Assembly (NCBI GenBank): GCA_964399525.1
Contig: CAYNRF010000001.1
Location: 2,125-50,844 of the forward strand
DNA from: an uncultured Phycisphaeraceae bacterium
GTDB taxonomy: Bacteria > Planctomycetota > Phycisphaerae > Phycisphaerales > UBA1924
Reading direction: 5' to 3'
DNA: 48,720 nucleotides
Shown here: positions 2,545-45,897 of the stretch, piece by piece
Position numbering within the stretch: the first letter of the stretch is position 1
Layout of the letters: each line of letters begins with the position of its first letter
Translations under genes and position numbers: made by a program
The notes under the pieces: generated by a model
What the model saw: the letters and a program-made list of their open reading frames with translations, nothing else
Databases searched by the model: none
What the model was told of the DNA's origin: nothing

Positions 2545-2552
2545 TTCCTCAC

Positions 2553-3569: not shown

Positions 3570-3614
3570 GGAAGGTCTCCCGGAGAGGGGGTGGTTCGTT
3601 CGGATCGGAGGATA

Positions 3615-4962: not shown

Positions 4963-6000
<1,038 letters not shown>

Positions 6001-10479: not shown

Positions 10480-10514
10480 GGGCGGGTATGATCTGCCGAA
10501 CACGGAGAAACCCC

Positions 10515-11819
10515 ATGCGAAACCTCTTGTCCCGCGCGATCGTCGCCTGCCTGACGCCCGGCCTGCTCGCCCTGCCGGCGTCGGCCGTCACCTCTGCGGA
10601 GCCCGACATGGTCCAGCCGGAACTGCTGCCCCAGGGCTTCGTGCTCGTGGTGGAGGATCTGTCCCGCACCGCCACCCCTGACCAGCCGATCTATCTCGCC
10701 TCGAGCATCAACGGCTGGAATCCGGCCGATCCCGACTATGTGCTCTCGCCGCGGTCGGACACGCGGTGGCAGATCGTGGTCGACAAGATCCCGGCCAACA
10801 CCACCATCGCCTACAAGGTCACGATGGGCGGCTGGGACCGCGAGGAACTCGACGAGTCGGGCAGCTCGATCGCCAACCGGTCGCTGCCAAAGGTCGACCG
10901 CTCGAAGCTGGCCCCCGGCGAGCGTCCGGTGATCGAGATCCAGGTGCCCCAGTTCCGCATCCCGGCGCCGCTGGCCGACGTGGTGCGGCAGTCGGGTCCG
11001 TACCGCAGGCTCGAGGTGACCGGCGACGTGCGCCGTCTGCCCGTGCAGGGCGGGGCGGGCGGGGCGGAGGCGCTGACGCGGGATCTGCTGGTCTGGCTGC
11101 CCCCGGGATACGACGCTCCCGAGAACGCGGGCCGTTCGTATCCCGTGCTGTACCTGATGGACGGGCAGAATGTCTTCGAGGCGCTGCCGGGCCTGCCGGG
11201 AGAGTGGGGGGCGGACGAGACGGCGACGCGGCTGGTCGAAGCCGGTGAGATCAGACCGCTGATCATCGTGGGCGTGCCGCACGCGGGCGAGCACCGTCTG
11301 ACCGAGTATCTCCCGTTCGGCTCGATCCAGGGCAACGAGGCGGCCGGGCCGGAGTTCCTCGGATGGGTGCGCCGTGAGGTCATGCCGCGGGTGGAGCGTG
11401 CGTTTCGCGTGGCCTCCGGGCCGGAGAACACGGGCATCGGCGGGGCCTCGCTGGGCGGGGCGATCTCGCTGTACGCGGCGACGCAGCACCCCGACGTGTT
11501 CGGCCGGGTGATCGTCGAGTCGCTGCCGCTGCTGCCGGACAACGGCAACGCGGCGCGGGCGTATCTGGACTCGGTCAGCGCCTGGCCGGGGAACGTGTTT
11601 GTCGGCATGGGCGGGCGCGAGGTCAGCAACGACGGGCGCGACGCCGAGCGCAACGCGATGTACCGGGCGTGGGCCGAGGAGCTGGACGCCCGCCTGGCGG
11701 CCGCCGGGCTCGGGGCGGACGCTCGGCGTCTGCGGATCGACGCCGAGGCCAACCACAACGAACTCGCTTGGGCCGCGCGGTTCCCGGAAGCCCTGGTCTT
11801 CCTGTTCCCCGCCGAGTGA
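10515..11819 (+). CDS. Secreted esterase-family alpha/beta hydrolase with N-terminal CBM48/glycogen-binding-like domain
   Basis: Start ATG 10515 (MRNLLSRAIVACLTPGLLALPASA) with GGAGA upstream. N-terminal block is YLASSINGWNPADPDYVL...WQIVV. Esterase (PF00756-like) blocks are YPVLYLMDGQNVF and GIGGASLGGAISLY, containing the nucleophile-elbow Ser. Confidence 0.8.
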   Translation: MRNLLSRAIVACLTPGLLALPASAVTSAEPDMVQPELLPQGFVLVVEDLSRTATPDQPIYLASSINGWNPADPDYVLSPRSDTRWQIVVDKIPANTTIAYKVTMGGWDREELDESGSSIANRSLPKVDRSKLAPGERPVIEIQVPQFRIPAPLADVVRQSGPYRRLEVTGDVRRLPVQGGAGGAEALTRDLLVWLPPGYDAPENAGRSYPVLYLMDGQNVFEALPGLPGEWGADETATRLVEAGEIRPLIIVGVPHAGEHRLTEYLPFGSIQGNEAAGPEFLGWVRREVMPRVERAFRVASGPENTGIGGASLGGAISLYAATQHPDVFGRVIVESLPLLPDNGNAARAYLDSVSAWPGNVFVGMGGREVSNDGRDAERNAMYRAWAEELDARLAAAGLGADARRLRIDAEANHNELAWAARFPEALVFLFPAE

Positions 11820-11884: not shown

Positions 11885-13243
11885 TCACACCTTGATGACG
11901 ATGTTCCTGCGCCAGAGCCACCAGCAGAAGAACCACCACATCGTCAGCCAGGTCAGCACGAAAACCCAGCCACCCCAGGCCATGGCCCACCACTCGCCGG
12001 CGCCGCGGAGCGCGGCCCAGTGCTGAACCCAGTTGATGAACCCGCCCGCCATGGCGCCGGCGTGGCCGTTGGGGTGGATGATCTGCCACTTGGCGAAGAT
12101 GGTCTTGAAGGTGAACTCGGCGCCCATGTAGAGGGCCAGGGCGTTGAGGCCGTAGACGCGGAAGACGAAGCAGGTGGAGATCTTCCAGACGTCGGTGACG
12201 AGGTAGAACCCCGCGAGCAGCATGGCCCCGGTGCCCGCGGCCAGCAGGCAGTAACTGGGCGTGAAGATCCACTTGCTGAAGGGCTGCGTCAGCGGGCCGA
12301 GCGAGCCGCCGCCCTCGGGGCGATAACCGGCCTGCAGGAGGTACGACAACGCGGTGACGAGAACGCCGATGCCCAGCAGCATGCCCGCCCGACGAAGTTT
12401 GGGCCATTTCTCGCTGGTGATCAGTTCGGTGCACCAGCCGCCCATCACCGCGACCGCGGCCAGCGGGAGGAACTGCTGGGCCATGCCGAACCAGCCAACC
12501 ACGAAGGCCCAGAACCGGGGCTCGCCGTTGGCGCGGAGGGTGGCCTTGGTGTGCTCGAGGTGGAGCAGGCGCTTGATGTCGTCGAGGTGGGTGAAGGTGC
12601 CAGGGCCGGTGAACTCGCCGCCGAGCACGCGGGGGGCGAGATTGGCGGCCTGCATCACGCCGCGGGCATAGTCGGCGGTGATGATCAGCGGCAGGGCGAG
12701 TTTGGCCAGCAGGATGGCGACCACGGCGGTGACCTGGGCCCAGCGCGGCATGAGGTAGATGCAGACCGCGACGAAGTAGCCCGCGCCGATGAGTTGCAGG
12801 ATGTTCCAGCTGAACCAGTCCGTCCAGGTCAGGGCGCGGTCGTAGGCCGGGCTGGCGACGGTGAGCAGCACGCCGAGCAGGTAGATGATGAGTCCCCGTC
12901 GGGCCGCGGCGGCCACTTTGGCCCAGGCACTCATCGAACGACCACGCCCGGACTTCATGGAGAGCGGGATGGCGGCCCCGGCGATGAACAGGAACCACGG
13001 GAAGACCAGGTCGGTGAAGGTGGCGCCCTGCTCGGGGGCGTTCCAGTCGATGTGGAAGAACTGCGGGTGGAACACCTTCTGGTTCCAGGTCATGTTGACG
13101 AAGAGCATGGCGGCGATGTCGAAGCCGCGGAAGGCGTCGAGGCACAGCAGGCGTTCGCGCTTGGCAGGGGCTGCCGGTGCGGGAGGAGCGGGGGCCGAGG
13201 GGGGGGCGGAAGGGGCGGCGGGTTCGGAGGCGATGCGGCTCAT
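11885..13243 (-). CDS. Polytopic membrane protein, DUF5009/DUF1624 heparan-alpha-glucosaminide N-acetyltransferase (HGSNAT)-like
   Basis: 452 aa. Pro/Ala-rich N-terminus, then RLLCLDAFRGFDIAAMLFVN and TFTDLVFPWFLFIAGAA, followed by many TM segments. The start ATG overlaps the lysA stop (ATGA at 13240-13243). Confidence 0.8.
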   Translation of the reverse strand: MSRIASEPAAPSAPPSAPAPPAPAAPAKRERLLCLDAFRGFDIAAMLFVNMTWNQKVFHPQFFHIDWNAPEQGATFTDLVFPWFLFIAGAAIPLSMKSGRGRSMSAWAKVAAAARRGLIIYLLGVLLTVASPAYDRALTWTDWFSWNILQLIGAGYFVAVCIYLMPRWAQVTAVVAILLAKLALPLIITADYARGVMQAANLAPRVLGGEFTGPGTFTHLDDIKRLLHLEHTKATLRANGEPRFWAFVVGWFGMAQQFLPLAAVAVMGGWCTELITSEKWPKLRRAGMLLGIGVLVTALSYLLQAGYRPEGGGSLGPLTQPFSKWIFTPSYCLLAAGTGAMLLAGFYLVTDVWKISTCFVFRVYGLNALALYMGAEFTFKTIFAKWQIIHPNGHAGAMAGGFINWVQHWAALRGAGEWWAMAWGGWVFVLTWLTMWWFFCWWLWRRNIVIKV

Positions 13244-14628
13244 CGGGCGGCCTCCGCGGGCAGGGGCACGGGCTGTTCGGCGAGGCCCGGAATGACCAGT
13301 TCGGCCGGGTGCTGGCGGGGGCGGAGCAGGGTGGCGCGGTCGGCGTCGACGAGCACCTCGGCCGGCAAGACCTGATCGTTGTAGGTGCTGGCCATGGTCA
13401 TGCCGTAGGCCCCGGCGGTGAACACGGCCAGGCGGTCGCCGCGCCGGACCTCGGGCAGGTGGATGCCGCGGGCGAGGAAGTCGCCGGACTCGCAGACCGG
13501 GCCGACGACATCGCAGGGTTCGACGCCGGGAGTTGGGGGCTCGAAGCGGCGGCTCGGAGGTTCGAAGCCGGGTTCGACCGTGGTGGGCCAGATGAAGTGC
13601 TTCGCCCCGTACAGCGACGGACGGATGAGTGCGTTCATGCCGGCGTCGCAGATCACGAAGCGGCGGCCGCCCTGGCGTTTGACGTGGCGAACGGTGACCA
13701 GCAGGACACCCGCGTTGGCCATGATGGTGCGCCCAGGTTCGAGGGCGATGTGCACGCCGCGGGTGACGAGGGGGCGGAGACGCGGGATCATCGCCTCCGC
13801 GAAAGTGGTGAAGGGTGGCGTCTGGCCGGTCTCGTAGTCCGCGCCGATGCCGCCGCCGAGGTCGAGATGGGTGACGGTGGTGCCCTCGGACTCGACACGG
13901 TCGATCAACATGGCCAGGCGGTCGATGGCTTGGAGATAGGGGTCGGGCTTGTAGATGGGCGAGCCGAGGTGGACGTGGAAGCCGGCGATGGCGACATCCG
14001 GATGGCCGCGGAAGTCGGCGCAGAGAGCGATCGCCTGATCAGCGGGAACGCCAAACTTGTCGCCCGCGCGTCCGGTCGTGGTGTGGTCGTGGGCGCCGGC
14101 GTCGATGTCGGGGTTGAGCCGGATGGCGACCCGGGCCCGGACGCCGAGTTCGGCGGCCACGGCCGCGATGCGTTCGAGTTCCGAGCGGGACTCGGTGTTG
14201 AGCACGCCGACCGGGCCGCGGGCGGCGGGGTCACCGGCATCGAGTTCACCGGCCCGGCCGCGGAGCGGGCTGAACCGGCCGTCGAGGGCGGCGCGGATCT
14301 CCTCGTCCGACTTGCCCACGCCAGCGAAGACCACCTTGTCCATCGGGCAACCGGCCAGCCAGGCCCGCTCGAGTTCGATGCCGGAGACCACGTCCATGCC
14401 CATGCCCGCCCCGACCAGGCGGCGGAGGACGCCGAGGTTCGAGCAGGCCTTGACGGCGTAGCAGAGCAGCGGATCGACTTCGGCGAAGGCCGCCCGGAAT
14501 CGTGTCACATGGTCGAGCATGGTCCGCTGGGAATAGACATACAGCGGCGTGCCGAGGGCGTCGGCCAGGGTGTCGGCGGCGATACCCTCCGCGTGGAGAC
14601 GGCCCGAGATGTAATGGAAATGGTCCAT
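13240..14628 (-). CDS. lysA: Diaminopimelate decarboxylase
   Basis: 462 aa. GTPLYVYS, CYAVKACSN (PLP Lys), DVVSG.ELERA, FHVHLGS, LDLGGGIG, EPGR.IMANAG, VVGPVCESGD and YGMTMASTYN blocks are collinear with LysA. Confidence 0.93.
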   Translation of the reverse strand: MDHFHYISGRLHAEGIAADTLADALGTPLYVYSQRTMLDHVTRFRAAFAEVDPLLCYAVKACSNLGVLRRLVGAGMGMDVVSGIELERAWLAGCPMDKVVFAGVGKSDEEIRAALDGRFSPLRGRAGELDAGDPAARGPVGVLNTESRSELERIAAVAAELGVRARVAIRLNPDIDAGAHDHTTTGRAGDKFGVPADQAIALCADFRGHPDVAIAGFHVHLGSPIYKPDPYLQAIDRLAMLIDRVESEGTTVTHLDLGGGIGADYETGQTPPFTTFAEAMIPRLRPLVTRGVHIALEPGRTIMANAGVLLVTVRHVKRQGGRRFVICDAGMNALIRPSLYGAKHFIWPTTVEPGFEPPSRRFEPPTPGVEPCDVVGPVCESGDFLARGIHLPEVRRGDRLAVFTAGAYGMTMASTYNDQVLPAEVLVDADRATLLRPRQHPAELVIPGLAEQPVPLPAEAAR

Positions 14629-14679: not shown

Positions 14680-17600
14680 ATGAAGGTCGACGCCCAAATC
14701 TTCCGCCCCCGCTTCGAGACGCTGTGCCGGGAGGTGATCGGACCGGCGATCTATCCGGACGCCGAGCGGCTGGCGGTGGGGGCCTGGGGGACCGACGAGC
14801 GGTTCGCGATCGGCAAGGCCCGGGCGGCACGGTTCGAGCCGGTGGCGTTGCCGCACGCGTGGGGCCCGGCGTGGTCCACGGCCTGGTTCAAGTTGACGGG
14901 CAAGGTGCCGGAGCGGTTCGCGGGCAGGGCCGTGCACCTGCGGTTCGATCCTGGGACCGAGGCGACGGTCTGGGTCGGGAACGATCCCGTGCGGGGGTTG
15001 GATGAGAACCGCGATTCGGTGGATCTGGGCCTGGTGAATGTGGATAACTCGGCCGGAGCGTCGGTTGAGGTGCTGGTCGAGGCGGCGTGCAATCACCCGT
15101 TCGGCGATCAGGTGTTCACATGGGACAGCCGCGAGCGGGGGGAGAAGTGGCGGTCGGCCACGCCCGGGCTCGTGTCCCGGGCCGAGCTGGCGGTGTTCGA
15201 CGAGACGGTCTGGCGGCTGCACCGGCGGATGCTGTTCGCGACGCAGCTGCTGGCGGAACTGGAGCCGGAGTCGGTCCGGGCCCAGGACCTGTACGCCTGC
15301 CTGCGGCACGCGGCGGACGCGGTGGACGACGCGGACGTGGCCGGGTCGGCGGCGGGAGCGTTGCGGACCCTCAACGAGGGGCTGGGCCGGTCGGCGGGCG
15401 GGTCGACGCCGCGGCTGGTCTGCGTGGCCCATGCACACATCGACACCGCCTGGCTGTGGACGCTGGCGGAGACGCGGCGGAAGGTGGTCCGGTCGTGGAC
15501 GAACACGCTGGACCTGATGGACCGCGATCCGGCGCTGCACTTCATGTGCTCGCAGCCGCAGCAGTACAAGTGGCTGGAGTCGGACGCGCCGGCGGTGTTC
15601 GAACGGATCAGGAAGAGGGCGGCGGAGGGTCGGTGGGAGCCGGTCGGATCGATGTGGGTCGAGCCGGACGCGCTGGTGCCGTCGGGCGAATCGCTGATGC
15701 GGCAGATGCTGTACGGCGTGCGTTATTTTGAGTCGCGGTTCGGGGAGCATGGGCGACAGCGGATGGTCTATCTGCCGGACACCTTCGGCTTCCCGGCGTG
15801 CCTGCCGTCGATCATGCGGGCGTGCGGCGCGGACGTGTTCATCACGAACAAGATCTCGTGGAACCAGGCCAACACCTTCCCGCACACCTCGTTCCGCTGG
15901 CGGGGGATGGACGGGTCGGAGGTGCTGGCGCACAACACGCCGGGCGGGGACTACAACGCGACGCTGACGCCGAAGGAGTTGCGCAAGGCGACGGCCAACG
16001 TGCGGGGGCGGGATGCGGCCGGGCTGGCCGGGCCGGCGGTCGCGCTGCAGCCGTTCGGGTTCGGCGATGGCGGCGGGGGGCCGACGGCCGACATGCTCGA
16101 GCGGGCGCACGCGGCGGCGGATTGTGAGGGCCTGCCGCGGGCGGAGCTGGGGTCGGTGGCGGGGTTCCTGGACGCCCTGAAGCAGGAGGACGAGCGGGCG
16201 GGGGGTCTGCCGGCGTGGTCGGGTCCGCTGGACCTGGAGCTGCACCGCGGCGTGCTGACGACGCACGCGTGGCTCAAGCGGGCGAACCGGGCGGCGGAGC
16301 GTGAGCTGCGGGTGGCGGAGCTGCTGGCGTGCGGGAGCGCGGCCCCGGCGGCGGCCACGCAGGAGAAACTCGACGAGGCCTGGGAGCGGACGCTGCTCAA
16401 TCAGTTCCACGACATCCTGCCGGGATCGTCGATCGGGCCGGTGTACGAAGATGCGCGCCGGGACCATGCCGAGATTTCGGCGATCGCGGCGGAAGTGCAG
16501 TCGGGGGCGGTGGTCCCGGGCGGTGAAACGTTCGTGTTGAACGCGGCAACGGACGGGCGGCGCGTCGTGGTTGAGGACGGGGGCACGCTGCGGCTGGTTG
16601 AAGCCGCGGCGTTCGGATTGCATCCCATGCAAGAGGTGCGTCCGGCCCATCCCGTGCGTGTCGAAGGCGCCCGGATCACCAACGGGCTGGTGTCGTTCGA
16701 GGTCGATGAGGCCGGACGGCTCGGCCATCTCGCGCACGCGGGCGGGGTCGATCTGGCGGCGGAGCGACCGCTCAACGAGCTGCGCCTGTACCGCGACCGG
16801 CCGATGAACTGGGACGCCTGGGATATCGATCTGGACTACGAGCGGAATCTGGCGTGGACCAACGACGCACCGGCCAAGGTCGAGATCCTGCGCGCGGACG
16901 CGTTGCGGGCCGAGGTGCGGGTGACCCATCGGATGGGCTCCTCGGCGTACACGCAGGTCTTCCGGCTGGACGCCGATTCGCCGGTGGTGGAGGTGCTCAC
17001 CCAGATCGACTGGCGGGAGCGGCACCGGATGCTGCGGGTGGAGAGCACGCCGCCAGTGTCGTGCGAGCGGGTGACGGTGGGCACGCAGTTCGGGTTCGTG
17101 TCCCGGCCGACGCACCGGAACACGAGCTGGGACCGCTTCGCGTTCGAGTTTGCGTGCCATCGCTGGATGGATGCCGCGCAGCCCGGGCGGGGACTGGCGG
17201 TCCTCAGCGACGCGCTGTACGGGCGGTCGGCCCACGGAAGGACGCTCGGACTCTCGCTGCTGCGTTCGCCGACGCACCCGGATCCGCAGGCGGATCAGGG
17301 TGCGAACACGCTGCGGTATGGCTTCCTGCCGCACGCGGGCGACTGGCGGGCGGCCGATGTGGACCGGCACGCCGAGGCGTTCGGAGAGCCGGCGCGGGTG
17401 ATCCGCGCGGGTTCAGGGATCGCGCCGGTGACGGTGCGGTGCGAGCAGGGCGGACGGGTTGAGATCGCGGCATTCAAGCGGGCGGCGGACGGGCCGGGTC
17501 GCGTGCTGCGGATCGTGGAGACCCGCGGGATGCACACGGGCGTCGATGTGGCATTCGCGTCGGCGTCGCGGCTTCGGCGGGTGGATGGGCTGGAGCGGGC

Positions 17601-17685
17601 GATCGCGGGTGAGGGGTGGCGGGATGGGGCGTCGGTGCGGGTGGAAGTGCGGCCGTTTGAGATTGTGACGTTGTTGGCGGAGTGA
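14680..17685 (+). CDS. GH38 alpha-mannosidase
   Basis: 1001 aa. AHAHIDTAWLW catalytic-region motif, PDTFGF, and a long C-terminal GH38 beta-domain. GGAG lies 6 nt upstream of the ATG. Confidence 0.92.
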   Translation: MKVDAQIFRPRFETLCREVIGPAIYPDAERLAVGAWGTDERFAIGKARAARFEPVALPHAWGPAWSTAWFKLTGKVPERFAGRAVHLRFDPGTEATVWVGNDPVRGLDENRDSVDLGLVNVDNSAGASVEVLVEAACNHPFGDQVFTWDSRERGEKWRSATPGLVSRAELAVFDETVWRLHRRMLFATQLLAELEPESVRAQDLYACLRHAADAVDDADVAGSAAGALRTLNEGLGRSAGGSTPRLVCVAHAHIDTAWLWTLAETRRKVVRSWTNTLDLMDRDPALHFMCSQPQQYKWLESDAPAVFERIRKRAAEGRWEPVGSMWVEPDALVPSGESLMRQMLYGVRYFESRFGEHGRQRMVYLPDTFGFPACLPSIMRACGADVFITNKISWNQANTFPHTSFRWRGMDGSEVLAHNTPGGDYNATLTPKELRKATANVRGRDAAGLAGPAVALQPFGFGDGGGGPTADMLERAHAAADCEGLPRAELGSVAGFLDALKQEDERAGGLPAWSGPLDLELHRGVLTTHAWLKRANRAAERELRVAELLACGSAAPAAATQEKLDEAWERTLLNQFHDILPGSSIGPVYEDARRDHAEISAIAAEVQSGAVVPGGETFVLNAATDGRRVVVEDGGTLRLVEAAAFGLHPMQEVRPAHPVRVEGARITNGLVSFEVDEAGRLGHLAHAGGVDLAAERPLNELRLYRDRPMNWDAWDIDLDYERNLAWTNDAPAKVEILRADALRAEVRVTHRMGSSAYTQVFRLDADSPVVEVLTQIDWRERHRMLRVESTPPVSCERVTVGTQFGFVSRPTHRNTSWDRFAFEFACHRWMDAAQPGRGLAVLSDALYGRSAHGRTLGLSLLRSPTHPDPQADQGANTLRYGFLPHAGDWRAADVDRHAEAFGEPARVIRAGSGIAPVTVRCEQGGRVEIAAFKRAADGPGRVLRIVETRGMHTGVDVAFASASRLRRVDGLERAIAGEGWRDGASVRVEVRPFEIVTLLAE

Positions 17686-17736: not shown

Positions 17737-19404
17737 TCAGTTGTCCCATGGCCATTGGGTGGGCATGGATTGGTCCTCGGCCGCGGCGCGGAGGGCAGCG
17801 GTCGCGTCTGCGTCGTCGCAGATCGCGTGCGGCTCCGTCGCGTTGGTGACGCAGCGGGCCGCGGTCAGTCCGGCGGCTTCGCCGATGGCCCACTCGACCG
17901 GGTGCAGGCGGGTGCAGCCGTTGGCCACGTGGGAGACGCCCAGGGCCTTGCCGGCGCTGAGCAGGTTGCGGACACGCACGGGGACCAGCGCGCCCAGCGG
18001 GATCTGGAACGGGCACGCGGGCACATAGACGTTGTTGCGGCCCGCGGCGGACGGGTGCAGGTCGATCGGGTAATGACCGATGCCGATCGAATCCGTGAAG
18101 GACGCGCCGGCGCCGTAGCGGGTGACGTCCTGGTTCGGTCGGCCGTCGCGTTTGCGTTGCTCGGTGCCGACATGGACCTCGGTGAGCATGGTGCGGGCGC
18201 GGAGGCGGCGCGGTTCGCGGATGTAGGCGGCCATGGCGAAGCCGTCGGGCGTGCCGAGTTCGTCGCCGCGGAGTTTGAGCCCGGGATACCCGGTTCCGCC
18301 GTCATGGCGGGGCGCGTCGGTCTGCATCCAGTAGACGAGGCAGCGGGACTGTTCGCGGGCGGCTTCGCAGGCCTGGGCGCGGTCGGCTTTGGTCACGCCC
18401 AGCAGCGGGTGCAGCCAGTGGTCCATTTGGACCCAGTTGACGAGGCAGACGTCGGGGAACTGGGCCGCCTGGGCTTCGGTGTAGGCCGCGTGATCGACGA
18501 TGCGTCGATACCGCCAGAGTTCCCACTGGCCCTGCTCGGGCTCGTCGGGCCAGGGGACCATCGGCAGGTGGCGGCCCTCACGCCCGGTGTGGGTGGGCAC
18601 GGTCCAGCTGAACAAGGGGCCGGTCCACGGCGGGGCCATCTCCGGCACGAAGGAGCGCCAGAAGTCGTAGTCGGACGGCCGGGCAATGGTGTGGTTCTCG
18701 CCCGGGCGGTGTTCGAGCGCGAAGCACCAGGAGAAAGCCTGCTGGTCGCGTTCGTCGCATTCGACCCCCGCGCGGAGGTCGGTGCGGGCGTGGTGCTCGC
18801 CGAAGACGTGCTGGCCCTCGGCGCCGATGAGCGATTCGATACCGCCGAGGTCGAGGACGTCGCCGAGGTCGGTCGCATCGAGGACGAAGTCGGCCTCCAC
18901 GGTCAGTTCCTCGCCGCCGGGACGGACGAAGGTGACGGCGGTGATGCGGTCGGCGTGGGTGTGGACCCGGTGCAGATCCCAGCCGGTGCGCAGATCGATC
19001 AGGCCGCGGACGTGCGGCTCGGAGAGCATGTCGCGGAGGACGCGTTCGATGACGCGGGGCTCGGCGCAGAGGCGACTGACCCAGCCGCGGCCGGGGTTCA
19101 TGCGCGGATGGTCGCGGACCTCGGGAATCAGCGGGCGGCTGGCGCGGTACCAGGCGCGGACCTGCTCGCGCATGGCGGCGTAGGACCCGGTGCAGCCGCG
19201 GAAGCCGGCGGGGGCGCCCGGTCCGTCGCCTTCGACCCAGGGGTTTTCGTCGGGCGGGACTGCCTGGGCGGTGAGCTGGCCGCCGATCCAGGCGGTGGGT
19301 TCGACGACGACGCAACGGACGCCGTTGCGGGCGCAGGCAAGGGCGGCGGGGACACCGCCGCAGGTGGCGCCGACGATCAGGACCGGGGTGCGGATGGTGT
19401 CCAA
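17737..19404 (-). CDS. FAD-dependent oxidoreductase (FAD_oxidored/PF12831-like)
   Basis: 555 aa. N-terminal dinucleotide-binding motif is VLIVGATCGGVPAALACARNG. It is the last gene of the CUT1 ABC operon, 7 nt after the permease stop. Confidence 0.85.
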   Translation of the reverse strand: MDTIRTPVLIVGATCGGVPAALACARNGVRCVVVEPTAWIGGQLTAQAVPPDENPWVEGDGPGAPAGFRGCTGSYAAMREQVRAWYRASRPLIPEVRDHPRMNPGRGWVSRLCAEPRVIERVLRDMLSEPHVRGLIDLRTGWDLHRVHTHADRITAVTFVRPGGEELTVEADFVLDATDLGDVLDLGGIESLIGAEGQHVFGEHHARTDLRAGVECDERDQQAFSWCFALEHRPGENHTIARPSDYDFWRSFVPEMAPPWTGPLFSWTVPTHTGREGRHLPMVPWPDEPEQGQWELWRYRRIVDHAAYTEAQAAQFPDVCLVNWVQMDHWLHPLLGVTKADRAQACEAAREQSRCLVYWMQTDAPRHDGGTGYPGLKLRGDELGTPDGFAMAAYIREPRRLRARTMLTEVHVGTEQRKRDGRPNQDVTRYGAGASFTDSIGIGHYPIDLHPSAAGRNNVYVPACPFQIPLGALVPVRVRNLLSAGKALGVSHVANGCTRLHPVEWAIGEAAGLTAARCVTNATEPHAICDDADATAALRAAAEDQSMPTQWPWDN

Positions 19405-22508: not shown

Positions 22509-22541
22509 AGCATCCCCGGAGAGCGGGCGGAACGCAACCGA

Positions 22542-27139: not shown

Positions 27140-27153
27140 AGTGACCGGGACGG

Positions 27154-28182: not shown

Positions 28183-29015
28183 GTGTGCTCGATCCATTCC
28201 ACGGACGAACGGACCAGCGCCGCGGCGGTCCGGACATCCTCGACCCGCTGCTCGCCCGCCTCCCGCTCGATCACCAGGTCGCAGTCGCTCAGACGCTGGC
28301 GGACGATGGCAAAGAAACGCGCCCAGTCCACCGCGCCGGTCCCCGCCGGGACTTCCCGGCCCCAGCTCCCCGGGACCGGCGTGTACAGGGCGTCCTTGAT
28401 GTGGATCTGCTCGACGCGCGGGGCGAGCTTGGTCAGCGCCTCGACCGGGTCGCCCATGTTGTACAGGATCATGTTGGCCGGATCGAAGTTGATGCCCACG
28501 GTGGGCCGGTCGAGCGCGTCGAGCGCTTCGAGCAGCGTGCCGGCGTCCTCCTGGCCCGTCTCCAGCGCCACGCGGACGCCGCAGCCGTGGAACACGTCCG
28601 CCAGATCCCGCAGGCGGTGGATCAGCTTGTCCCACTCCGGATCCTGGCGATCGTGGGGGATGAAGCCCGCGTGGAAGGTGACGAGGTTGACGCCGATGCG
28701 TGCCGCCAGCTCGGCGTCGCGTCGCGCCGCGGCCAGATTCTCGGGCCAGGTGCGGTCCGGGCGGACGCCGCCGGTCTCCCGGATGGTGTCGAGCGTGGAG
28801 TAGTCCTCTCCCGCGGTGGCCATCATGCCGGAGACGATCTCGATGCCGGCCCCGTCGAGCAGCGACACGGTTTCGATCTCGTCCCATTCACCGGTGCGCA
28901 CCGGGTCGAGGGCCAGCTGCACGGCGGAGAGGCCGCACTGCCTGATCTTGGCCACGAGATCGCCCGGCGAGGTCGGGCGCAGCGACCACGAGCACACGCC
29001 CAGCGCCGCGCTCAA
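28179..29015 (-). CDS. Sugar phosphate isomerase/epimerase (xylose-isomerase-like TIM barrel)
   Basis: About 278 aa. VNLVTFHAGF, RVALETGQE, GINFDPANM and IHIKDA are the metal-ligand blocks of the AP_endonuc_2 fold. The proposed TTG start at 29015 overlaps the nagB TGA (TTGA). The start is not certain. Confidence 0.8.
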   Translation of the reverse strand: MSAALGVCSWSLRPTSPGDLVAKIRQCGLSAVQLALDPVRTGEWDEIETVSLLDGAGIEIVSGMMATAGEDYSTLDTIRETGGVRPDRTWPENLAAARRDAELAARIGVNLVTFHAGFIPHDRQDPEWDKLIHRLRDLADVFHGCGVRVALETGQEDAGTLLEALDALDRPTVGINFDPANMILYNMGDPVEALTKLAPRVEQIHIKDALYTPVPGSWGREVPAGTGAVDWARFFAIVRQRLSDCDLVIEREAGEQRVEDVRTAAALVRSSVEWIEHT

Positions 29016-31054
29016 CGCCCGGCTCCCGTCTGGGCGAGGGGCTTGATCTCCGCGGCGGACGCGGCCTCGTCCAGCGATCCGTCGGCGGCGCTGGGCTTCC
29101 AGGTCACGAACCCTTCGATGGCCTGGTACTCGGGCAGGCCCAGGGCGTCGTAGAGCTCGGCGGTGGCCCGGTTGCGATCCTCGGCCCGTTCCCAGAACTC
29201 TCGCGGGTCGTTGGGGCCCGGGAACAGAGCGCGGTCCTTCTGGCTCTGGTGCTTGAAGATCGCCATGCGCTTGCGGTCCACCTCGTCGGGCGACAGGGGC
29301 ACCGCCATCTCGATGTCCTCGGCGCCCCATTCCTGCCACGCGCCGCGGTACAGCCACACGGTGCAGTCCTTCATCCACGCCTCGTCACGCAGCCGGTGCA
29401 GCGCCGTGGTGATCGCCGCCAGGCACACCCGGTGCGTTCCGTGCGGGTCGGACAGATCGCCCGCCGCGTAGACCTGATGGGGCTTGACGCTGCGCAGCAG
29501 GTCCGTCACGATCCGGATATCGTCCTCGCCCAGCGGCTTCTTCTTGACCTTGCCGGTCTCGTAGAAGGGCATGTCCAGGAAGTGGATGTTCTCCGCCTTG
29601 ACGCCCGAGTACTTCGCGCCCGCGCGTGCCTCGGCCCGCCGGATCAGGCCCTTGATGGTCTGGATCTCGGCCGAGTCGACCTCGCCGGGCTCCTTGTCGC
29701 GGATGAAGTCCTGCACGCGACCGGTCAGCGCCGTGATCTGTTCGACCGCAATTCCCAAAGCGTTGGAGAGCTCCTGGGTAAAGTCGGCGAACTTGGCGGC
29801 TTCGTCGTCGAAGACGGCGATGTTGCCGCTGGTCTGGTAGGCGACGTGCACCTCGTGCCCCTGGTCGCACAGGCGGATGAAGGTGCCGCCCATCGAGATG
29901 ACGTCGTCGTCGGGGTGCGGGCTGAACACGATCACCCGCTTGGGGAACACGTCGTCGGTCCGCGTGTCGTCGATGCCCTTGCCGGGGACGAACATCGGAC
30001 GCCCCGGCTTGCCGCCGGGCCAGCCGGTGATGGTTTTCTGGAGGTTCTTGAACACCTCGATGTTCACCTGATACGCCCCGCCGCGCGCGGCGACCAGCTC
30101 CTGCAGTCCGTGCTCGTTGTAGTCCTCGTTGGTCAGCTTGAGGATGGGCTTCTTGAGCGAGCGCGCCAGCCAGATCACCGCCCGCTTGACGAGCCGGGCG
30201 TCCTCCCACGAATGGCCGAACCGCTTGACCGGGCCGAGCAGCCAGGGGGTCTTGAAGCGGGTCAGTTCCGCCGCGGCCGCCTCGTCGAGCACGAAGCGGG
30301 CGTTGGGATGCTCCTGGAGGAACGAGGCGGCGACCGTGTTGGTGATCTCGCCCTCGACCGCGCGGCGGACGATCGGCGCCTTGTGCTCGCCGAAGGCCAT
30401 CAGCACCACCCGCTTGGCATCGAGGATGGAGCCCACACCCATGGTGATCGCCTGGTGCGGCACGTTCCACTCGCCGAAGAAGTCGCTGGCCGCGTCCATC
30501 CGCGTGACCTTGTCCAGCGTGATCAGGCGGGTGCGGCTGTCCTTGCTCGAGCCGGGCTCGTTGAAGCCGACGTGGCCCGTCCGGCCGATGCCCAGCAGCT
30601 GCAGGTCCAGACCGCCGGCATCAGCGATCGCCTTCTCGTAGCGCTCGCAGTACGCGTCGACATCGTCACGCGGGATCGTGCCGTCGGGCACGTGGGCGTT
30701 CTTCGGGTCAATGTCCACGTGGTCGAACAGGTGCTCGCGCATGAAGCGGCGGTAGCTCTGCAGCTCGTCCGGGCCCATCGGCCAGTACTCGTCGAGGTTG
30801 AAGCTGATCACGTCGCGGAACGACAGCCCTTCCTCGCGGTGCAGCCGGACCAGTTCGTCGTAGACGGCCTGGGGGGTCGACCCGGTCGCCAGACCCAGCA
30901 CGGTCTTCTCGCCGCGGGCGGACTTGGCGCGGATCAGCTCGGCGATCTCGCGGGCCACGGCCCGCGAGGCGGAGCTGGAAGAGGCATAAACGGTGACGGG
31001 GACGCGCTCGGGGGCGTGCCCGGTCGCGTGTGCGGCGTGGTCAGATCCGATCAC
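29012..31054 (-). CDS. nagB: Glucosamine-6-phosphate deaminase (NagB) fused to an LmbE/PIG-L-type N-deacetylase domain
   Basis: 680 aa. The N-terminal half has VLGLATGSTP, FNLDEY and LLGIGRTGHVGFNEPGS (NagB). The C-terminal half has VIVFSPHPDDDVISMGGT...HEVHVAYQTSG (PIG-L/LmbE zinc deacetylase motif). Confidence 0.9.
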   Translation of the reverse strand: MIGSDHAAHATGHAPERVPVTVYASSSSASRAVAREIAELIRAKSARGEKTVLGLATGSTPQAVYDELVRLHREEGLSFRDVISFNLDEYWPMGPDELQSYRRFMREHLFDHVDIDPKNAHVPDGTIPRDDVDAYCERYEKAIADAGGLDLQLLGIGRTGHVGFNEPGSSKDSRTRLITLDKVTRMDAASDFFGEWNVPHQAITMGVGSILDAKRVVLMAFGEHKAPIVRRAVEGEITNTVAASFLQEHPNARFVLDEAAAAELTRFKTPWLLGPVKRFGHSWEDARLVKRAVIWLARSLKKPILKLTNEDYNEHGLQELVAARGGAYQVNIEVFKNLQKTITGWPGGKPGRPMFVPGKGIDDTRTDDVFPKRVIVFSPHPDDDVISMGGTFIRLCDQGHEVHVAYQTSGNIAVFDDEAAKFADFTQELSNALGIAVEQITALTGRVQDFIRDKEPGEVDSAEIQTIKGLIRRAEARAGAKYSGVKAENIHFLDMPFYETGKVKKKPLGEDDIRIVTDLLRSVKPHQVYAAGDLSDPHGTHRVCLAAITTALHRLRDEAWMKDCTVWLYRGAWQEWGAEDIEMAVPLSPDEVDRKRMAIFKHQSQKDRALFPGPNDPREFWERAEDRNRATAELYDALGLPEYQAIEGFVTWKPSAADGSLDEAASAAEIKPLAQTGAGR

Positions 31055-31176
31055 GGGTCTCTCCCTCGGAGACGGTGTCAGAACCCGGCGGGCGCGATGC
31101 CTTGGGTAAAATCCCCGCGTCCAACTTCTTGGTCACGGGGCTTCTTCGGATCGGGGAGGGATTGCACCGATCCTCG

Positions 31177-31196
31177 AAAGATTATATAACCTTACT
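31177..31196 (-). promoter_or_regulatory. AT-only motif (minus strand GGTTATATAATCTTTCG), candidate internal promoter -10 for nagB
   Basis: It contains TATAAT. It overlaps the stop codon (TAA, 31182-31184) of the upstream Gfo gene. It matches 37250-37265 at 14 of 16 positions. It lies about 125 nt upstream of ATG 31054. Confidence 0.35.
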
Positions 31197-32189
31197 GGCT
31201 CGGGCGGCGTTGTCAACCGCCTCGGCCGCACCAAGCCCGTCCCGGGCGTCTGCCAGGTCTCCGCGGGGCGTCTCCCCGCGGGCGGCCCTGGCAAAGTGGG
31301 CAAGCTGTCGGGAGAAGCGGACCTCGTGAGACTCGACCTGGATCACCTCGGGCTGCCCGATGCCGGGCCGGTACACCAGCTCGGTGGGCTTCATGTAGTC
31401 GTAGTGCAGGGAGCCGTTGGTGCCGATCAGGTCGACGGTGAACCGCTCGGGCTCGAGCCATCCGGCCAGGATGACCCCGGCCACACCGGCGTGCTTGCCT
31501 TCCGAGGCCTTGACCAGCACGGTGGCGCTCGATTCGCCTCGCCCGTTCCAGTCGTAGTCGTACACCGAACCGACCACCTCGGCCGGGCCGACCAGGTAAC
31601 GGAACAGGTCCAGCGAGTGGCAGCCGGTGTCGATGAACGAGCCGCCCCCGGACACGGCCGGATCGGACATCCACCGCTCGGCCATGGGCGGGTGGTGGAA
31701 CGCGAAGGCGTTCTCGAACCGCGAGAGACGCCCGATCTTGCCGGACGCGACCAGCTTCTTCATCTCCACGATGGGCGGCGCGAAGCGGTGGCAGTAGGCG
31801 ATGCCGAACAGCGTCGCGGGGTGCGCGTCGGCGATCTCGACGATGCGGGCGGCATCCTCGGGGTTCGACGCCAGCGGCTTTTCGGCCAGCACCGCGATGC
31901 CGCGCTGCAGGGCGTGGCGGATCGGCTCGACCCGGACGGTGGGGGGGGTGCAAAGCACCACGCCGTCCAGCTTCAGGTCGCCCCCGTCGACCGCCCGGAA
32001 CAGGTCGTCCGTCGAGGCGAACGCCTTGGCGCCGTGCTGCTCGGCGAGTTTGGCGGCGGCCTGCGCGTTCGGATCGACGACGGCGACGATCCGCACGAGG
32101 CCGCCCGAGTCCTTGGCGGCCGCCGAGTGGGCGTTGGAAATGCCTCCGGCACCGATGACGCCGAGGGCGAAAGATCCGTTGTTGCTCAT
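31182..32189 (-). CDS. Gfo/Idh/MocA-family oxidoreductase
   Basis: 335 aa. Motifs LGVIGAGGISNAH, VLCTPP and AVLAEKPLA. Confidence 0.9.
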   Translation of the reverse strand: MSNNGSFALGVIGAGGISNAHSAAAKDSGGLVRIVAVVDPNAQAAAKLAEQHGAKAFASTDDLFRAVDGGDLKLDGVVLCTPPTVRVEPIRHALQRGIAVLAEKPLASNPEDAARIVEIADAHPATLFGIAYCHRFAPPIVEMKKLVASGKIGRLSRFENAFAFHHPPMAERWMSDPAVSGGGSFIDTGCHSLDLFRYLVGPAEVVGSVYDYDWNGRGESSATVLVKASEGKHAGVAGVILAGWLEPERFTVDLIGTNGSLHYDYMKPTELVYRPGIGQPEVIQVESHEVRFSRQLAHFARAARGETPRGDLADARDGLGAAEAVDNAARASKVI

Positions 32190-32272
32190 GTCTTACACCA
32201 TCCGGGCGATGCCCGGTGTCAGAACTCCTCCGCGGAAGGCCGATGCCCCCGCCGTGCTTGAAGGGTAGACGC

Positions 32273-33769: not shown

Positions 33770-33823
33770 GCCATCCGCCCGATGAGGACCGAACGCAACA
33801 CCGAACCGACCCGAGAGGCCCCG

Positions 33824-36256: not shown

Positions 36257-36282
36257 ATCCTGATCAGAAAGGCCTGGCGCGC

Positions 36283-37161: not shown

Positions 37162-37246
37162 AAAATGCTTTCGTGGTTCCGATCGTGTTCCGGTCCACGA
37201 TTTCGACGGCTCCTGCCCCGATTTTCCCCTTCCGACCAAGGGAAAT

Positions 37247-37264
37247 AAGTTATATAATCATTCC
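37247..37264 (+). promoter_or_regulatory. AT-only motif AAGTTATATAATCATTCC, candidate promoter -10 for the GC-dockerin paralogue
   Basis: TATAAT at 37253-37258, with TTCCGA 17 nt upstream. It lies about 65 nt upstream of ATG 37325. The inverted repeat TTTCCC/GGGAAA (37223-37245) sits immediately upstream. Confidence 0.4.
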
Positions 37265-37324
37265 AGCGGAGTCCGGCGCGAGCCGGGCACGCTCCATCAG
37301 CAAGATCAGAGGGAGACCGGACTC

Positions 37325-38707: not shown

Positions 38708-38740
38708 GGCCGCCCCGGGCTCTGCCCGGGGCGGCCTTTT
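38708..38740 (+). terminator. Rho-independent terminator
   Basis: GGCCGCCCCGGG-CTCTG-CCCGGGGCGGCC (12-bp perfect stem) followed by TTTT. It abuts the stop of the convergent symporter gene. Confidence 0.65.
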
Positions 38741-40401: not shown

Positions 40402-40447
40402 GCCGGGCACGATACCCTCCCCCGTCCAACCCTGCACGGAGACGCCG

Positions 40448-42609: not shown

Positions 42610-42676
42610 CGATCCTGAGCCTCCCTCTGCATCGGCGTTGTTCGCGCCGCTGTCCCGAGAAGATCGGGCGATCGCG

Positions 42677-44653: not shown

Positions 44654-44778
44654 CCGGACAGTTTAGAAGGCTCACGCCCGACGGCGAGGTCCGGCCTACC
44701 GTCTGGGCCCCGGTTTTTTCGCACCTGGTAGCCAGCAACGCCCCGACGCACCCCGTCGGCGCTCCGGAGATCCCGCCG

Positions 44779-45890: not shown

Positions 45891-45897
45891 CTTGAAG

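What the first reader, a model, noticed from the sequence alone, without database searches (positions are those of the whole stretch)
11885..14628. lysA is translationally coupled to an HGSNAT-like membrane acyltransferase, and the same pairing recurs behind speA
Seen in sequence:
- The lysA stop and the start of a 452-aa polytopic membrane protein share ATGA (13240-13243).
- That protein has the DUF5009/HGSNAT signature (RLLCLDAFRGFDIAAMLFVN, TFTDLVFPWFLFIAGAA).
- speA (44653<-42677) is the only other fold-type-III PLP decarboxylase in the window. It is also followed on the same strand, 67 nt downstream, by the only other member of this membrane family (42609<-41452; RLASLDAFRGATIAAMILVN, TPTDLIFPFFLFIVGAA).
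- I see no strong terminator in that 67-nt gap.

Established: LysA and SpeA are homologues. HGSNAT-type proteins carry acetyl groups from cytoplasmic acetyl-CoA to a primary amine on the other side of a membrane.

I do not know this association from the literature.

Inference: a decarboxylase plus transmembrane N-acyltransferase module could do one of the following:
- acetylate or export the amine products (lysine or DAP-derived amines, agmatine);
- attach them to envelope glycans or peptidoglycan;
- link amino-sugar re-acetylation to DAP and arginine flux.
Basis: partly seen in the sequence, partly recalled or inferred. Interest (0 to 1): 0.7.

Follow-up and report, generated by a model that had tools for sequence, protein, structure and literature searches.

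The report
lysA coupled to cell-wall salvage acetyltransferase
Both decarboxylase–membrane-acyltransferase pairs are real, but comparison with relatives places the two membrane proteins in a cell-wall and amino-sugar salvage gene neighbourhood, where lysA is a long-standing neighbour and speA a recent, accidental one.

Summary
lysA (14628..13240, minus strand) and the 452-aa HGSNAT-fold protein M1 (13243..11885) share ATGA. speA (44653..42677) is followed after 67 nt, with no terminator, by the paralogue M2 (42609..41452).

The idea of a recurring decarboxylase-plus-acyltransferase module does not hold.
- In 5 of 7 M2 lineages at 57% identity or more, agmatinase speB sits between speA and M2. 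More distant M2 orthologues have no speA.
- 113 family loci outside Phycisphaerae carry no fold-III decarboxylase.

lysA-M1 is a real, conserved unit. It occurs in 11 Phycisphaerales loci from three M1 clades. Ten keep an ATGA/GTGA junction and one an 8-nt overlap.

In relatives the unit extends to lysA-M-GH20-anmK-murQ-SSF beside a MurNAc-L-Ala amidase. Elsewhere lysA is followed by a beta-lactamase-like/C39 peptidase gene. The same salvage genes (amidase, SSF, ROK, NagB/PIG-L, NAGPA, GH38) surround M2 in the window.

Best reading: M1 and M2 are NagX/HGSNAT-type transmembrane N-acetyltransferases of peptidoglycan and amino-sugar salvage. lysA may convert salvaged meso-DAP to lysine; this is inferred. 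I rate it a new variant of a known kind, of moderate interest.

The parts
13240..14628 (-). lysA, diaminopimelate decarboxylase (462 aa)
   Evidence: It scores 396.6 bits against TIGR01048 (cut-off 297.9) and has the Pfam domains PF02784 and PF00278.
11885..13243 (-). M1, a divergent HGSNAT/DUF5009-family transmembrane acyltransferase (452 aa)
   Evidence: Pfam hits are above the cut-offs. The family profile matches human HGSNAT at E = 1.7e-29. The AF2 model has pLDDT 89.2 and matches only HGSNAT structures, E = 2e-12 and TM 0.66.
13240..13243 (-). ATGA overlap of the lysA stop and the M1 start
   Evidence: Read directly. The same ATGA/GTGA junction occurs in 10 of 11 related loci, and the eleventh has an 8-nt overlap.
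13251..13255 (-). GGAGG Shine-Dalgarno-like motif inside the 3' end of lysA, 7 nt before the M1 ATG
   Evidence: Read from the sequence. A GGAG or GAG motif at a similar position appears at most related junctions.
14680..17685 (+). GH38 alpha-mannosidase, divergent from lysA
   Evidence: Pfam. It lies within 7 kb of M1-family genes in 17 of 47 planctomycete loci.
17737..19404 (-). FAD-dependent oxidoreductase (PF12831), a conserved neighbour of GH38 and lysA
   Evidence: Pfam. It is present in 14 of 47 loci.
10488..11819 (+). Secreted esterase (PF00756), convergent with M1
   Evidence: Pfam. In L167 the same esterase and its 713-aa neighbour sit beside M2-Ami2-SSF instead.
42677..44653 (-). 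speA, biosynthetic arginine decarboxylase (658 aa)
   Evidence: It scores 816.5 bits on NF003763 and 710.5 bits on TIGR01273.
42610..42676 (-). 67-nt speA-M2 spacer with no terminator; GGGAGG at 42620-42625
   Evidence: Relatives carry a whole agmatinase gene at this position.
41452..42609 (-). M2, a NagX-like HGSNAT-family transmembrane acetyltransferase (385 aa)
   Evidence: It scores 140.8 bits on the NagX model. Its profile matches human HGSNAT at E = 3.6e-46. As a single sequence its Pfam scores fall just below the cut-offs.
40394..41455 (+). Amidase_2, N-acetylmuramoyl-L-alanine amidase. It is a probable lipoprotein (lipobox VAGC; likely true start near 40448) and is convergent with M2.
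   Evidence: Pfam and the translation. The M2-Ami2-SSF trio is kept in all 7 close M2 lineages.
38740..40587 (-). Sodium:solute symporter. The ORF start is over-extended; the likely start is near 40404.
   Evidence: Pfam and NCBIfam hits.
29012..38680 (.). Amino-sugar and glycan block:
- NagB + PIG-L fusion (31054..29012)
- GFO oxidoreductase (32189..31182)
- GHL10 (32216-33769)
- NAGPA-GHL10-dockerin protein (33782-36256)
- ROK kinase (36283-37161)
- dockerin-tailed 537-aa protein (37067-38680)
   Evidence: The same order is found next to M2 in L161 and L163, and next to an M1-like gene in L034.
44641..45747 (+). Deoxyhypusine-synthase-like polyamine gene, divergent from speA
   Evidence: PF01916 hit. 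The DS<-speA arrangement is kept in L161, L165 and L172.

Best explanation
M1 and M2 are two old paralogues of the bacterial short form of HGSNAT (the NagX/DUF5009 type).

Proposed mechanism (inferred, not shown):
- The enzyme takes the acetyl group of cytoplasmic acetyl-CoA through the membrane pore to a periplasm-facing histidine.
- It then N-acetylates free-amine amino sugars in the periplasm, such as GlcN or de-N-acetylated muropeptide or anhydro-muramyl sugars.
- The acetylated sugars can enter a salvage route: SSF import, ROK or AnmK phosphorylation, MurQ, then PIG-L/NagB.

Shown here:
- Both genes belong to a peptidoglycan and amino-sugar salvage neighbourhood that is reshuffled among Phycisphaerae.
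- lysA is a long-standing member of that neighbourhood. In the window's lineage it is the first cistron of a translationally coupled lysA-M1 pair, a trimmed form of the lysA-M-GH20-anmK-murQ-SSF arrangement seen in relatives.
- speA stands next to M2 only because a speA-speB polyamine operon abuts the M2-amidase-SSF block and speB was lost from between them in the window's immediate lineage.

Inferred, not shown: lysA's most plausible role in this setting is to convert meso-DAP, freed from stem peptides by the amidase and peptidases, into lysine.

Conclusion: the two decarboxylase pairings have different histories and do not form one module.
For: Family and chemistry:
- Profiles of M1 and M2 match only human HGSNAT in the PDB, E = 1.7e-29 and 3.6e-46.
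- The AF2 model of M1 (pLDDT 89.2) matches only HGSNAT structures.
- Both hit only the NCBIfam NagX model.
- The HGSNAT residues N258, H269, D279, P283 and D244/R247 (PMC11357348) align with invariant residues: N50, H64, D78, P82, D36/R39 in M1 and N34, H48, D58, P62, D20/R23 in M2.
- NagX is proposed, from fitness data in five bacteria, to acetylate periplasmic GlcN (PMC9007349).

Genomic context:
- Next to an M1-like gene, L033 carries GH20, AnmK and a MurQ-like SIS protein (Pfam).
- L026, L027 and L029 read lysA>M>GH20>AnmK>MurQ, followed by SSF> where the contig continues (L026, L027). L042 reads lysA>M>GH20>MurQ>SSF>, with no AnmK hit.
- In L026, L027 and L042, Ami2 and GH38 lie divergent upstream.
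- Of 47 planctomycete M1-family loci, 23 carry at least one peptidoglycan-turnover gene. Counts are AnmK 14, MurQ 12, Ami2 12, Bla-like 11 and GH20 9.
- The same salvage genes swap between M1-like and M2-like genes in L034, L043, L167, L028 and L175.

lysA:
- lysA is directly upstream of M1 in 11 loci from three M1 clades.
- Ten of those junctions are RTGA overlaps and one is an 8-nt overlap.
- In five other loci a beta-lactamase-like/C39 peptidase gene follows lysA, overlapping it or starting within about 35 nt of its stop.

speA:
- speB lies between speA and M2 in L161, L172 and L167. L163 and L173 show speB directly upstream of M2, but their contigs end before speA.
- Direct speA-M2 adjacency is seen only in the window and in L165.
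Against: - No activity, substrate or transcript was measured.
- In the window itself, GH20, anmK and murQ are absent. The peptidoglycan link of M1 therefore rests on relatives.
- The role of lysA could be neutral hitch-hiking.
- I could not test whether this lysA is the genome's only copy.
- TfMurT, a relative, is described as a MurNAc transporter, not an acetyltransferase.
- The M1 subfamily has replaced the HGSNAT R344 equivalent, so its acceptor or mechanism may differ.
- speB-M2 4-nt overlaps in three lineages show that M2 really is co-expressed with polyamine genes in that clade. I treat this as an accident of position, but that is unproven.
- The M-family tree is a rough NJ tree without support values.
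Confidence: 0.6

Rival explanations
1. The decarboxylase and the transmembrane acyltransferase work on the same metabolite. The membrane protein acetylates, exports or attaches to the envelope the amine products (lysine or DAP-derived amines, agmatine).
For: - Both pairings exist in one window and are unlikely under random gene order, P about 3.7e-4.
- The lysA-M1 overlap is conserved.
- M2 is co-oriented with speA-speB in 7 lineages and overlaps speB by 4 nt in three of them.
Against: - The ancestral neighbour of M2 is agmatinase, not the decarboxylase.
- The speA/speB association disappears at 54% M2 identity or less.
- None of 113 family loci outside Phycisphaerae carries a fold-III decarboxylase.
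- lysA is coupled just as tightly to a beta-lactamase-like/C39 gene in other lineages.
- LysA and SpeA products are cytoplasmic, whereas the HGSNAT catalytic His faces the far side of the membrane (PMC11357348).
- In the papers read here, members of this family are reported to act only on amino sugars.
Confidence: 0.05
2. This is pure synteny. lysA is a housekeeping gene that happens to sit in this neighbourhood, and M1 merely uses its promoter and ribosomes. There is no metabolic link between lysA and the salvage genes.
For: - The adjacency is confined to Phycisphaerales and is lost in many M1 orthologues. L006-L009 keep GH38 or GH20-AnmK-MurQ beside M1 but no lysA, and Pirellulales loci have none.
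- The protein is an ordinary TIGR01048 LysA.
Against: - lysA stays within 7 kb of M1-family genes in 17 of 47 loci despite repeated rearrangement.
- It remains operonic with a peptidoglycan-related gene in 16 of those 17 loci: M1 in 11 and the Bla-like/C39 gene in 5.
- The overlapping junction persists down to 36% M1 identity.
Confidence: 0.25
3. M1 and/or M2 are amino-sugar permeases like TfMurT, importing MurNAc or anhMurNAc. They are not acetyltransferases.
For: - TfMurT belongs to this family and lies in one transcriptional unit with murK and murQ.
- M1-like genes abut AnmK-MurQ in about a dozen loci.
Against: - All acetyl-CoA-binding and catalytic residues are invariant in both subfamilies.
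- A dedicated SSF transporter co-occurs with them.
- Price et al. argue against a pure transport role for NagX.
Confidence: 0.15

Closest known systems
NagX (NCBIfam NF046061, Shewanella SO_3504 type), the proposed transmembrane glucosamine N-acetyltransferase
   Same: - It is the same short bacterial HGSNAT_cat architecture with the conserved catalytic His.
- It is encoded among amino-sugar catabolic genes. Near M2 these are NagB/PIG-L, a ROK kinase and a sugar transporter.
- NagX is the only NCBIfam hit for both M1 and M2.
   Different: - Scores are far below the equivalog cut-off of 480 bits (M2 140.8, M1 66.6).
- The context here is peptidoglycan-flavoured (amidase, and AnmK and MurQ in relatives) rather than a chitin/nag operon.
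- The genes are co-transcribed with lysA or speA/speB, which is not described for NagX in the papers read here.
Human HGSNAT (PDB 8vkj, 8jkv, 8tu9)
   Same: - The TmAT fold matches (Foldseek E = 2e-12, TM 0.66).
- The DxxR motif, N258, H269, D279 and P283 equivalents are conserved.
   Different: - M1 and M2 lack the N-terminal luminal domain (385-452 aa against 663 aa).
- Sequence identity to HGSNAT is about 20% for M1 in the Foldseek alignment.
- M1 lacks the R344 equivalent and carries an insertion of about 60 aa (residues about 185-250).
- The acceptor substrate is unknown.
Tannerella forsythia MurT within the ampG-murT-murK-murQ cluster
   Same: - Price et al. state that it is a family relative.
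- It is encoded with MurNAc kinase and etherase genes, as M1-like genes are with AnmK and MurQ in L007, L009, L016, L026, L027, L029-L033, L040, L042 and L045.
   Different: - It is described as a MurNAc importer.
- No lysA is reported in that cluster.
- I did not compare its sequence here.
Gram-negative peptidoglycan recycling (AmpG-NagZ-AmpD-AnmK-MurQ; MpaA releases mDAP)
   Same: The enzymatic steps are the same, carried out by amidase, hexosaminidase, AnmK and MurQ in the related loci.
   Different: - Import seems to use an SSF symporter rather than AmpG.
- The amidase is a predicted lipoprotein.
- An HGSNAT-type enzyme and lysA are part of the operon. I found no report of this in the literature searches.

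Membership tests
HGSNAT / TmAT superfamily (PF07786, PF16401) | Sequence match to the family model above the curated threshold | tested here: met
   M1 scores 45.4 bits on HGSNAT_cat (cut-off 22) and 27 bits on DUF5009 (cut-off 25). M2 alone falls just short (21.3 against 22; 21.8 against 25), but its orthologue profile hits human HGSNAT at E = 3.6e-46 over both halves.
HGSNAT / TmAT superfamily | TmAT fold (multi-helix catalytic core plus scaffold) | tested here: met
   The AF2 model of M1 has pLDDT 89.2 and pTM 0.87. The top 15 Foldseek PDB hits are all HGSNAT (E 2e-12 to 3e-9, TMq 0.59-0.67), and the next hit has E = 0.02. M2 was not modelled.
HGSNAT / TmAT superfamily | Catalytic His, acetyl-CoA-binding Asn and the DxxR motif | tested here: met
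   H269, N258 and D244/R247 (PMC11357348) align to invariant H64, N50 and D36/R39 in M1, and to H48, N34 and D20/R23 in M2.
HGSNAT / TmAT superfamily | R344 salt-bridge residue at the outer pore entrance | tested here: inconclusive
   It is kept in M2 (invariant R133 in RxPGVLQR). In the M1 subfamily it is replaced, with an invariant WNILQL motif instead.
HGSNAT proper (eukaryotic lysosomal enzyme) | N-terminal luminal domain and autoproteolytic two-chain form | tested here: not met
   The alignment to HGSNAT begins at residue about 264 of 663. M1 and M2 have only 14-30 residues before the first helix.
NagX (NF046061 equivalog) | Score at or above the 480-bit equivalog cut-off | tested here: not met
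   M2 scores 140.8 bits and M1 66.6 bits. They are homologues, not equivalogs.
NagX | Encoded with GlcN/GlcNAc catabolic genes | tested here: met
   Within 12 kb of M2 lie a NagB+PIG-L fusion, a ROK kinase and an SSF transporter, and these are conserved in L161 and L163. In L043, NagB/PIG-L is directly upstream of an M1-like gene.
NagX / HGSNAT | Acetyl-CoA-dependent N-acetylation of an extracytoplasmic glucosamine | not testable with these tools
   This needs biochemistry.
LysA (TIGR01048) | Equivalog score | tested here: met
   396.6 bits against a cut-off of 297.9.
SpeA (TIGR01273 / NF003763) | Equivalog score plus the helical-bundle and C-terminal domains | tested here: met
   710.5 bits (cut-off 624.1) and 816.5 bits (cut-off 369). 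Pfam Arg_decarb_HB and Arg_decarbox_C are present.
Proposed 'decarboxylase + transmembrane acyltransferase module' | Pairing conserved across related genomes for both pairs | tested here: not met
   lysA-M1 is directly adjacent in 11 of 47 planctomycete loci and only in Phycisphaerales-type loci. Direct speA-M2 adjacency occurs in 2 of 7 close lineages and 0 of 5 more distant ones. It occurs in none of 113 loci outside Phycisphaerae.
Peptidoglycan-recycling cluster | Co-location with amidase, hexosaminidase, AnmK and MurQ | tested here: inconclusive
   This is met in relatives such as L026, L027, L029, L033 and L040. In the window only the amidase is present, beside M2. GH20, anmK and murQ are not in the 48.7 kb.

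The most novel reading that the evidence does not exclude
The conserved translational coupling of lysA to the divergent M1 subfamily may reflect a real biochemical link. M1 has the HGSNAT core with a changed outer pore entrance.

One version: M1 N-acetylates a peptidoglycan-derived amine that NagX does not handle, such as a de-N-acetylated anhydro-muramyl end or the free amino group of meso-DAP in stem peptides. This would happen in the periplasm, in step with cytoplasmic DAP-to-lysine conversion.

That would define a Phycisphaerae-specific branch of cell-wall recycling or modification, and it would give the first assigned function to a DUF5009-type protein.
Probability: 0.1. Interest if true: 0.65.

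Novelty: new variant of a known kind. Interest (0 to 1): 0.35.

Why it matters
A 2025 structural survey of the superfamily says no DUF5009 protein has an experimentally confirmed function (PMC12423673). NagX's proposed role rests on fitness data.

The Phycisphaerae loci add a concrete, testable context for these proteins: peptidoglycan and anhydro-MurNAc salvage with lysA as lead cistron. This suggests specific substrates to test, namely GlcN, MurN and de-N-acetylated muropeptides.

The result also shows that a striking within-genome recurrence of gene pairs can arise from two unrelated histories. That is a useful caution for guilt-by-association annotation.

The practical impact is modest. 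This is a refinement of a known salvage scheme, not a new kind of system.

Tried and rejected
It returned only distant family members (35-46% identity) instead of close orthologues. These served as a broad negative control. Close orthologues had to be fetched one at a time.
- One Pfam call failed because I gave an untranslatable range.
- The sigma-70 promoter scan found nothing in either region. This says little, because planctomycete promoters may not fit that consensus.
- The Rfam and tRNA scans found only a tRNA-Ser and no riboswitch or leader near either pair.
- I considered duplication of an ancestral decarboxylase+M module and rejected it. LysA and SpeA align only over part of the PLP domain (24% identity). 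M2 is closer to cyanobacterial proteins (41%, L076) than to M1 (26%).
- I considered that the lysA here might be a different decarboxylase (nspC, ornithine/lysine decarboxylase or the exosortase-associated type). All of those scored far below their cut-offs.
- Literature searches for lysA in peptidoglycan-recycling operons, and for peptidoglycan recycling in Phycisphaerae, found nothing relevant.


Full report
**1. What is in the window**

- lysA (14628..13240, 462 aa) passes the NCBIfam lysA equivalog, 396.6 bits against a 297.9 cut-off.
- M1 (13243..11885, 452 aa) passes Pfam HGSNAT_cat and DUF5009.
- The lysA stop and the M1 start share ATGA at 13240-13243.
- No other start codon exists upstream of the conserved core of M1.
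- A GGAGG sits 7 nt upstream of that start, inside lysA.
- speA (44653..42677) passes both speA equivalogs.
- M2 (42609..41452, 385 aa) follows speA after 67 nt.
- That gap has no terminator-like site and no unusual fold, z = 0.04. It has a GGGAGG 10 nt before the ATG.
- Profile searches of every window ORF find exactly two fold-III decarboxylases and exactly two HGSNAT-family genes.

Under random gene order such a double pairing has P about 3.7e-4, but this is a post-hoc figure.

**2. What the membrane proteins are**

- Profiles of M1 orthologues and of M2 orthologues match nothing in the PDB except human HGSNAT, at E = 1.7e-29 and 3.6e-46.
- An AlphaFold model of M1 (pLDDT 89.2) matches only HGSNAT structures, E = 2e-12 and TM 0.66.
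- The HGSNAT structure paper (PMC11357348) names these residues: the acetyl-CoA-binding N258, the catalytic H269, D279, P283 and the cytosolic D244/R247.
- These align with invariant residues of both subfamilies:
  - M1: N50, H64, D78, P82, D36/R39.
  - M2: N34, H48, D58, P62, D20/R23.
- M2 keeps the R344 equivalent. The M1 subfamily has replaced it.
- The only NCBIfam hit for both is NagX, the "transmembrane glucosamine N-acetyltransferase". Both score far below the equivalog cut-off.
- From fitness data, Price et al. propose that NagX acetylates periplasmic glucosamine with cytoplasmic acetyl-CoA. They also note that the Tannerella MurNAc transporter MurT is a relative (PMC9007349; PMC7670621).
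- M1 and M2 are old paralogues, 26% identical.
- M1's family is small and almost entirely planctomycete (130 hits). M2's family is very large.

**3. Is lysA-M1 conserved?**

I fetched 80 genome loci for the M1 family and mapped window proteins onto them.

- lysA lies directly upstream on the same strand in 11 loci: L001-L005, L016, L024, L026, L027, L029 and L042.
- M1 identity in these loci ranges from 91% down to about 36%.
- In 10 of the 11, the lysA TGA overlaps an ATG or GTG start (ATGA/GTGA). In the eleventh the overlap is 8 nt.
- Most junctions have a GGAG-like motif just upstream.
- On a rough NJ tree the 11 loci fall in three separate M1 clades.
- Six more loci have lysA within 7 kb.
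- The adjacency is absent from other Phycisphaerales M1 orthologues (L006-L009) and from all Pirellulales-type loci, such as Bythopirellula, Botrimarina and Lacipirellulaceae.

lysA-M1 is therefore a real, selected bicistron, but a lineage-restricted and dispensable one.

**4. Is speA-M2 conserved?**

I looked up close M2 orthologues one by one.

- Seven lineages at 57% identity or more all keep M2-amidase-SSF.
- All seven have polyamine genes directly upstream of M2 on the same strand. speA itself is seen in five of them (window, L165, L161, L172, L167). In L163 and L173 the contig ends at speB.
- In five of the seven (L161, L163, L172, L167, L173) the agmatinase gene speB lies between speA and M2.
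- In three of those five, speB overlaps M2 by 4 nt.
- Only the window and L165 (78% identity) have speA directly next to M2. This is a secondary state caused by loss of speB.
- Five orthologues at 47-54% identity (L028, L169, L171, L174, L175) have no speA or speB nearby.
- Three of those five sit beside an M1-like paralogue.

**5. The broader family**

- None of 33 non-planctomycete loci (L048-L080) encodes a fold-III decarboxylase within the flanks.
- Nor does any of the 80 metagenomic M2-family loci (L081-L160). This holds by tblastn and by profile search.
- The 118 immediate neighbours of the metagenomic set are heterogeneous.
- They include AnmK, the exo-muramidase NamZ and GH3 (two each), but no decarboxylase among the 25 most frequent Pfam families listed.

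**6. What does travel with M1 and M2**

- In L033, Pfam identifies GH20, AnmK and a MurQ-like SIS protein directly upstream of the M1-like gene.
- Downstream in L033, lysA is followed by a beta-lactamase-like/peptidase-C39 protein.
- With these proteins added as queries, the map becomes clear.
- L026 and L027 read FADox> GH38< Ami2< | lysA> M> GH20> AnmK> MurQ> SSF>.
- L042 is the same but without an AnmK hit. L029, a short contig, shows lysA> M> GH20> AnmK> MurQ>.
- L007 and L009 have M1 beside GH20-AnmK-MurQ-Ami2-SSF, without lysA.
- L016 has lysA>M1> next to MurQ and AnmK.
- In L032, L033, L035, L038 and L040, lysA is tightly followed by the Bla-like/C39 gene, and the M1-like gene is convergent with it.
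- Among the 47 planctomycete loci, the counts within 7 kb are:

| Gene | Loci (of 47) |
|---|---|
| LysA | 17 |
| GH38 | 17 |
| AnmK | 14 |
| FADox | 14 |
| MurQ | 12 |
| Ami2 | 12 |
| Bla-like | 11 |
| SSF | 10 |
| GH20 | 9 |

- In the window, M2 is flanked by the predicted lipoprotein MurNAc-L-Ala amidase and the SSF symporter.
- Beyond these lie a dockerin protein, a ROK kinase, a NAGPA-GHL10 protein, GHL10, a GFO oxidoreductase and a NagB+PIG-L fusion. The order is the same in L161 and L163.
- These genes swap partners between M1-like and M2-like genes in other genomes:
  - L034: M1-like next to Unk537-ROK-NAGPA-GHL10.
  - L043: NagB/PIG-L>M1-like>GH38<.
  - L167: M2-Ami2-SSF-esterase-Unk713, whereas in the window the last two flank M1.
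  - L028 and L175: M2 and M1 side by side with amidase, GH38 and C39/Bla-like genes.

**7. Interpretation**

- The stable association of both paralogues is with peptidoglycan and amino-sugar salvage, not with decarboxylases.
- I infer that M1 and M2 N-acetylate periplasmic free-amine amino sugars so that they can enter the salvage route. This is the NagX logic applied to cell-wall-derived sugars.
- lysA is a long-standing member of the neighbourhood and heads operons with peptidoglycan-active genes in 16 loci.
- The most economical functional reason is conversion of meso-DAP from recycled stem peptides to lysine. This is inference. Neutral hitch-hiking of a housekeeping gene remains a serious rival.
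- speA is next to M2 because a polyamine operon abuts the block and lost speB.

**8. Limits**

- There are no expression or activity data.
- GH20, anmK and murQ are not in this window.
- The number of lysA copies per genome is unknown.
- The tree has no support values.
- The literature library is partial. I found no report of lysA inside peptidoglycan-recycling operons, or of such operons in Phycisphaerae.

**9. Verdict**

- This is a new variant of a known kind: a NagX/MurT-type enzyme in a salvage cluster, here led by lysA.
- Interest is 0.35.

Noticed in passing
L032, L033, L035, L038, L040 (e.g. L035:8126-10734, L033:8383-11836): In a sister set of Phycisphaerales, the gene that follows lysA is a Beta-lactamase2-family protein, sometimes fused to a Peptidase_C39_2 domain. 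It overlaps lysA or starts within about 35 nt of its stop (ATGA overlap in L035). This is a second, independent coupling of lysA to a probable cell-wall peptide hydrolase.
   Followed up: partly
window 42610-42676 versus L161:7117-7980, L172:3504-4367: The agmatinase gene speB lies between speA and M2 in most relatives. It is missing here and nowhere else in the 48.7 kb. The polyamine route downstream of agmatine in this organism is therefore unclear, because only the deoxyhypusine-synthase-like gene remains beside speA.
   Followed up: partly
window 29012-31054 (-): A 680-aa fusion of a glucosamine-6-phosphate deaminase (NagB) domain with a PIG-L-type de-N-acetylase domain (NF002557, 1020 bits). 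It presumably does the NagA and NagB steps in one protein.
   Followed up: no
window 33782-36256 (+) and 37067-38680 (+): A NAGPA (phosphodiester glycosidase) + GHL10 + dockerin protein, and a 537-aa protein with no Pfam domain but a GC-type dockerin tail. Both are conserved next to ROK and SSF in relatives. Together with the cytoplasmic GH38 they hint at GlcNAc-phosphate-linked or mannose-containing wall polymers as substrates.
   Followed up: no
M1 residues about 138-151 (window about 12791-12832) and 185-250: The M1 subfamily replaces the RxPGVLQR motif, which holds the HGSNAT R344 equivalent and is kept in M2, with an invariant SWNILQL motif. It also carries a partly low-confidence insertion of about 60 residues. 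Its outer pore entrance may therefore accept a different substrate.
   Followed up: partly
window 40394-40587 and 44641-44653: The longest-ORF calls make SSF overlap Ami2 by about 190 nt and the DS-like gene overlap speA by 13 nt. Homology starts later in each protein. The real starts are probably near 40404 (SSF), 40448 (Ami2, giving a lipoprotein signal peptide) and 44779 (DS-like), which leaves short divergent promoter regions.
   Followed up: partly
window 45802-45891 (+): A tRNA-Ser (anticodon GGA). It is the only RNA gene found by ARAGORN and Rfam in the window.
   Followed up: yes
window 822-4787 (-), 20230-24682 (-): There are two sugar ABC-transporter sets. The first consists of an ATPase, a Peripla_BP_4 binding protein and a permease. 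The second consists of an SBP_bac_1/8 binding protein and a permease, with a GntR/LacI-type regulator at 23525-24682. Two N-terminal-methylation (DUF1559-type) proteins lie at 4963-6000 and 22542-23528. Almost the whole window is glycan-utilisation territory.
   Followed up: no
window 26990-29012: A stretch of about 2 kb without a clean high-GC3 ORF. One ORF with atypical codon-position GC (28179-29378) overlaps the NagB/PIG-L gene. I did not examine it.
   Followed up: no
L004:14520-15314: In a relative with 71% M1 identity, the DS-like polyamine gene lies only about 6 kb downstream of lysA-M1. The two loci that are 27 kb apart in the window are much closer there, so the intervening block is mobile within the neighbourhood.
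   Followed up: no
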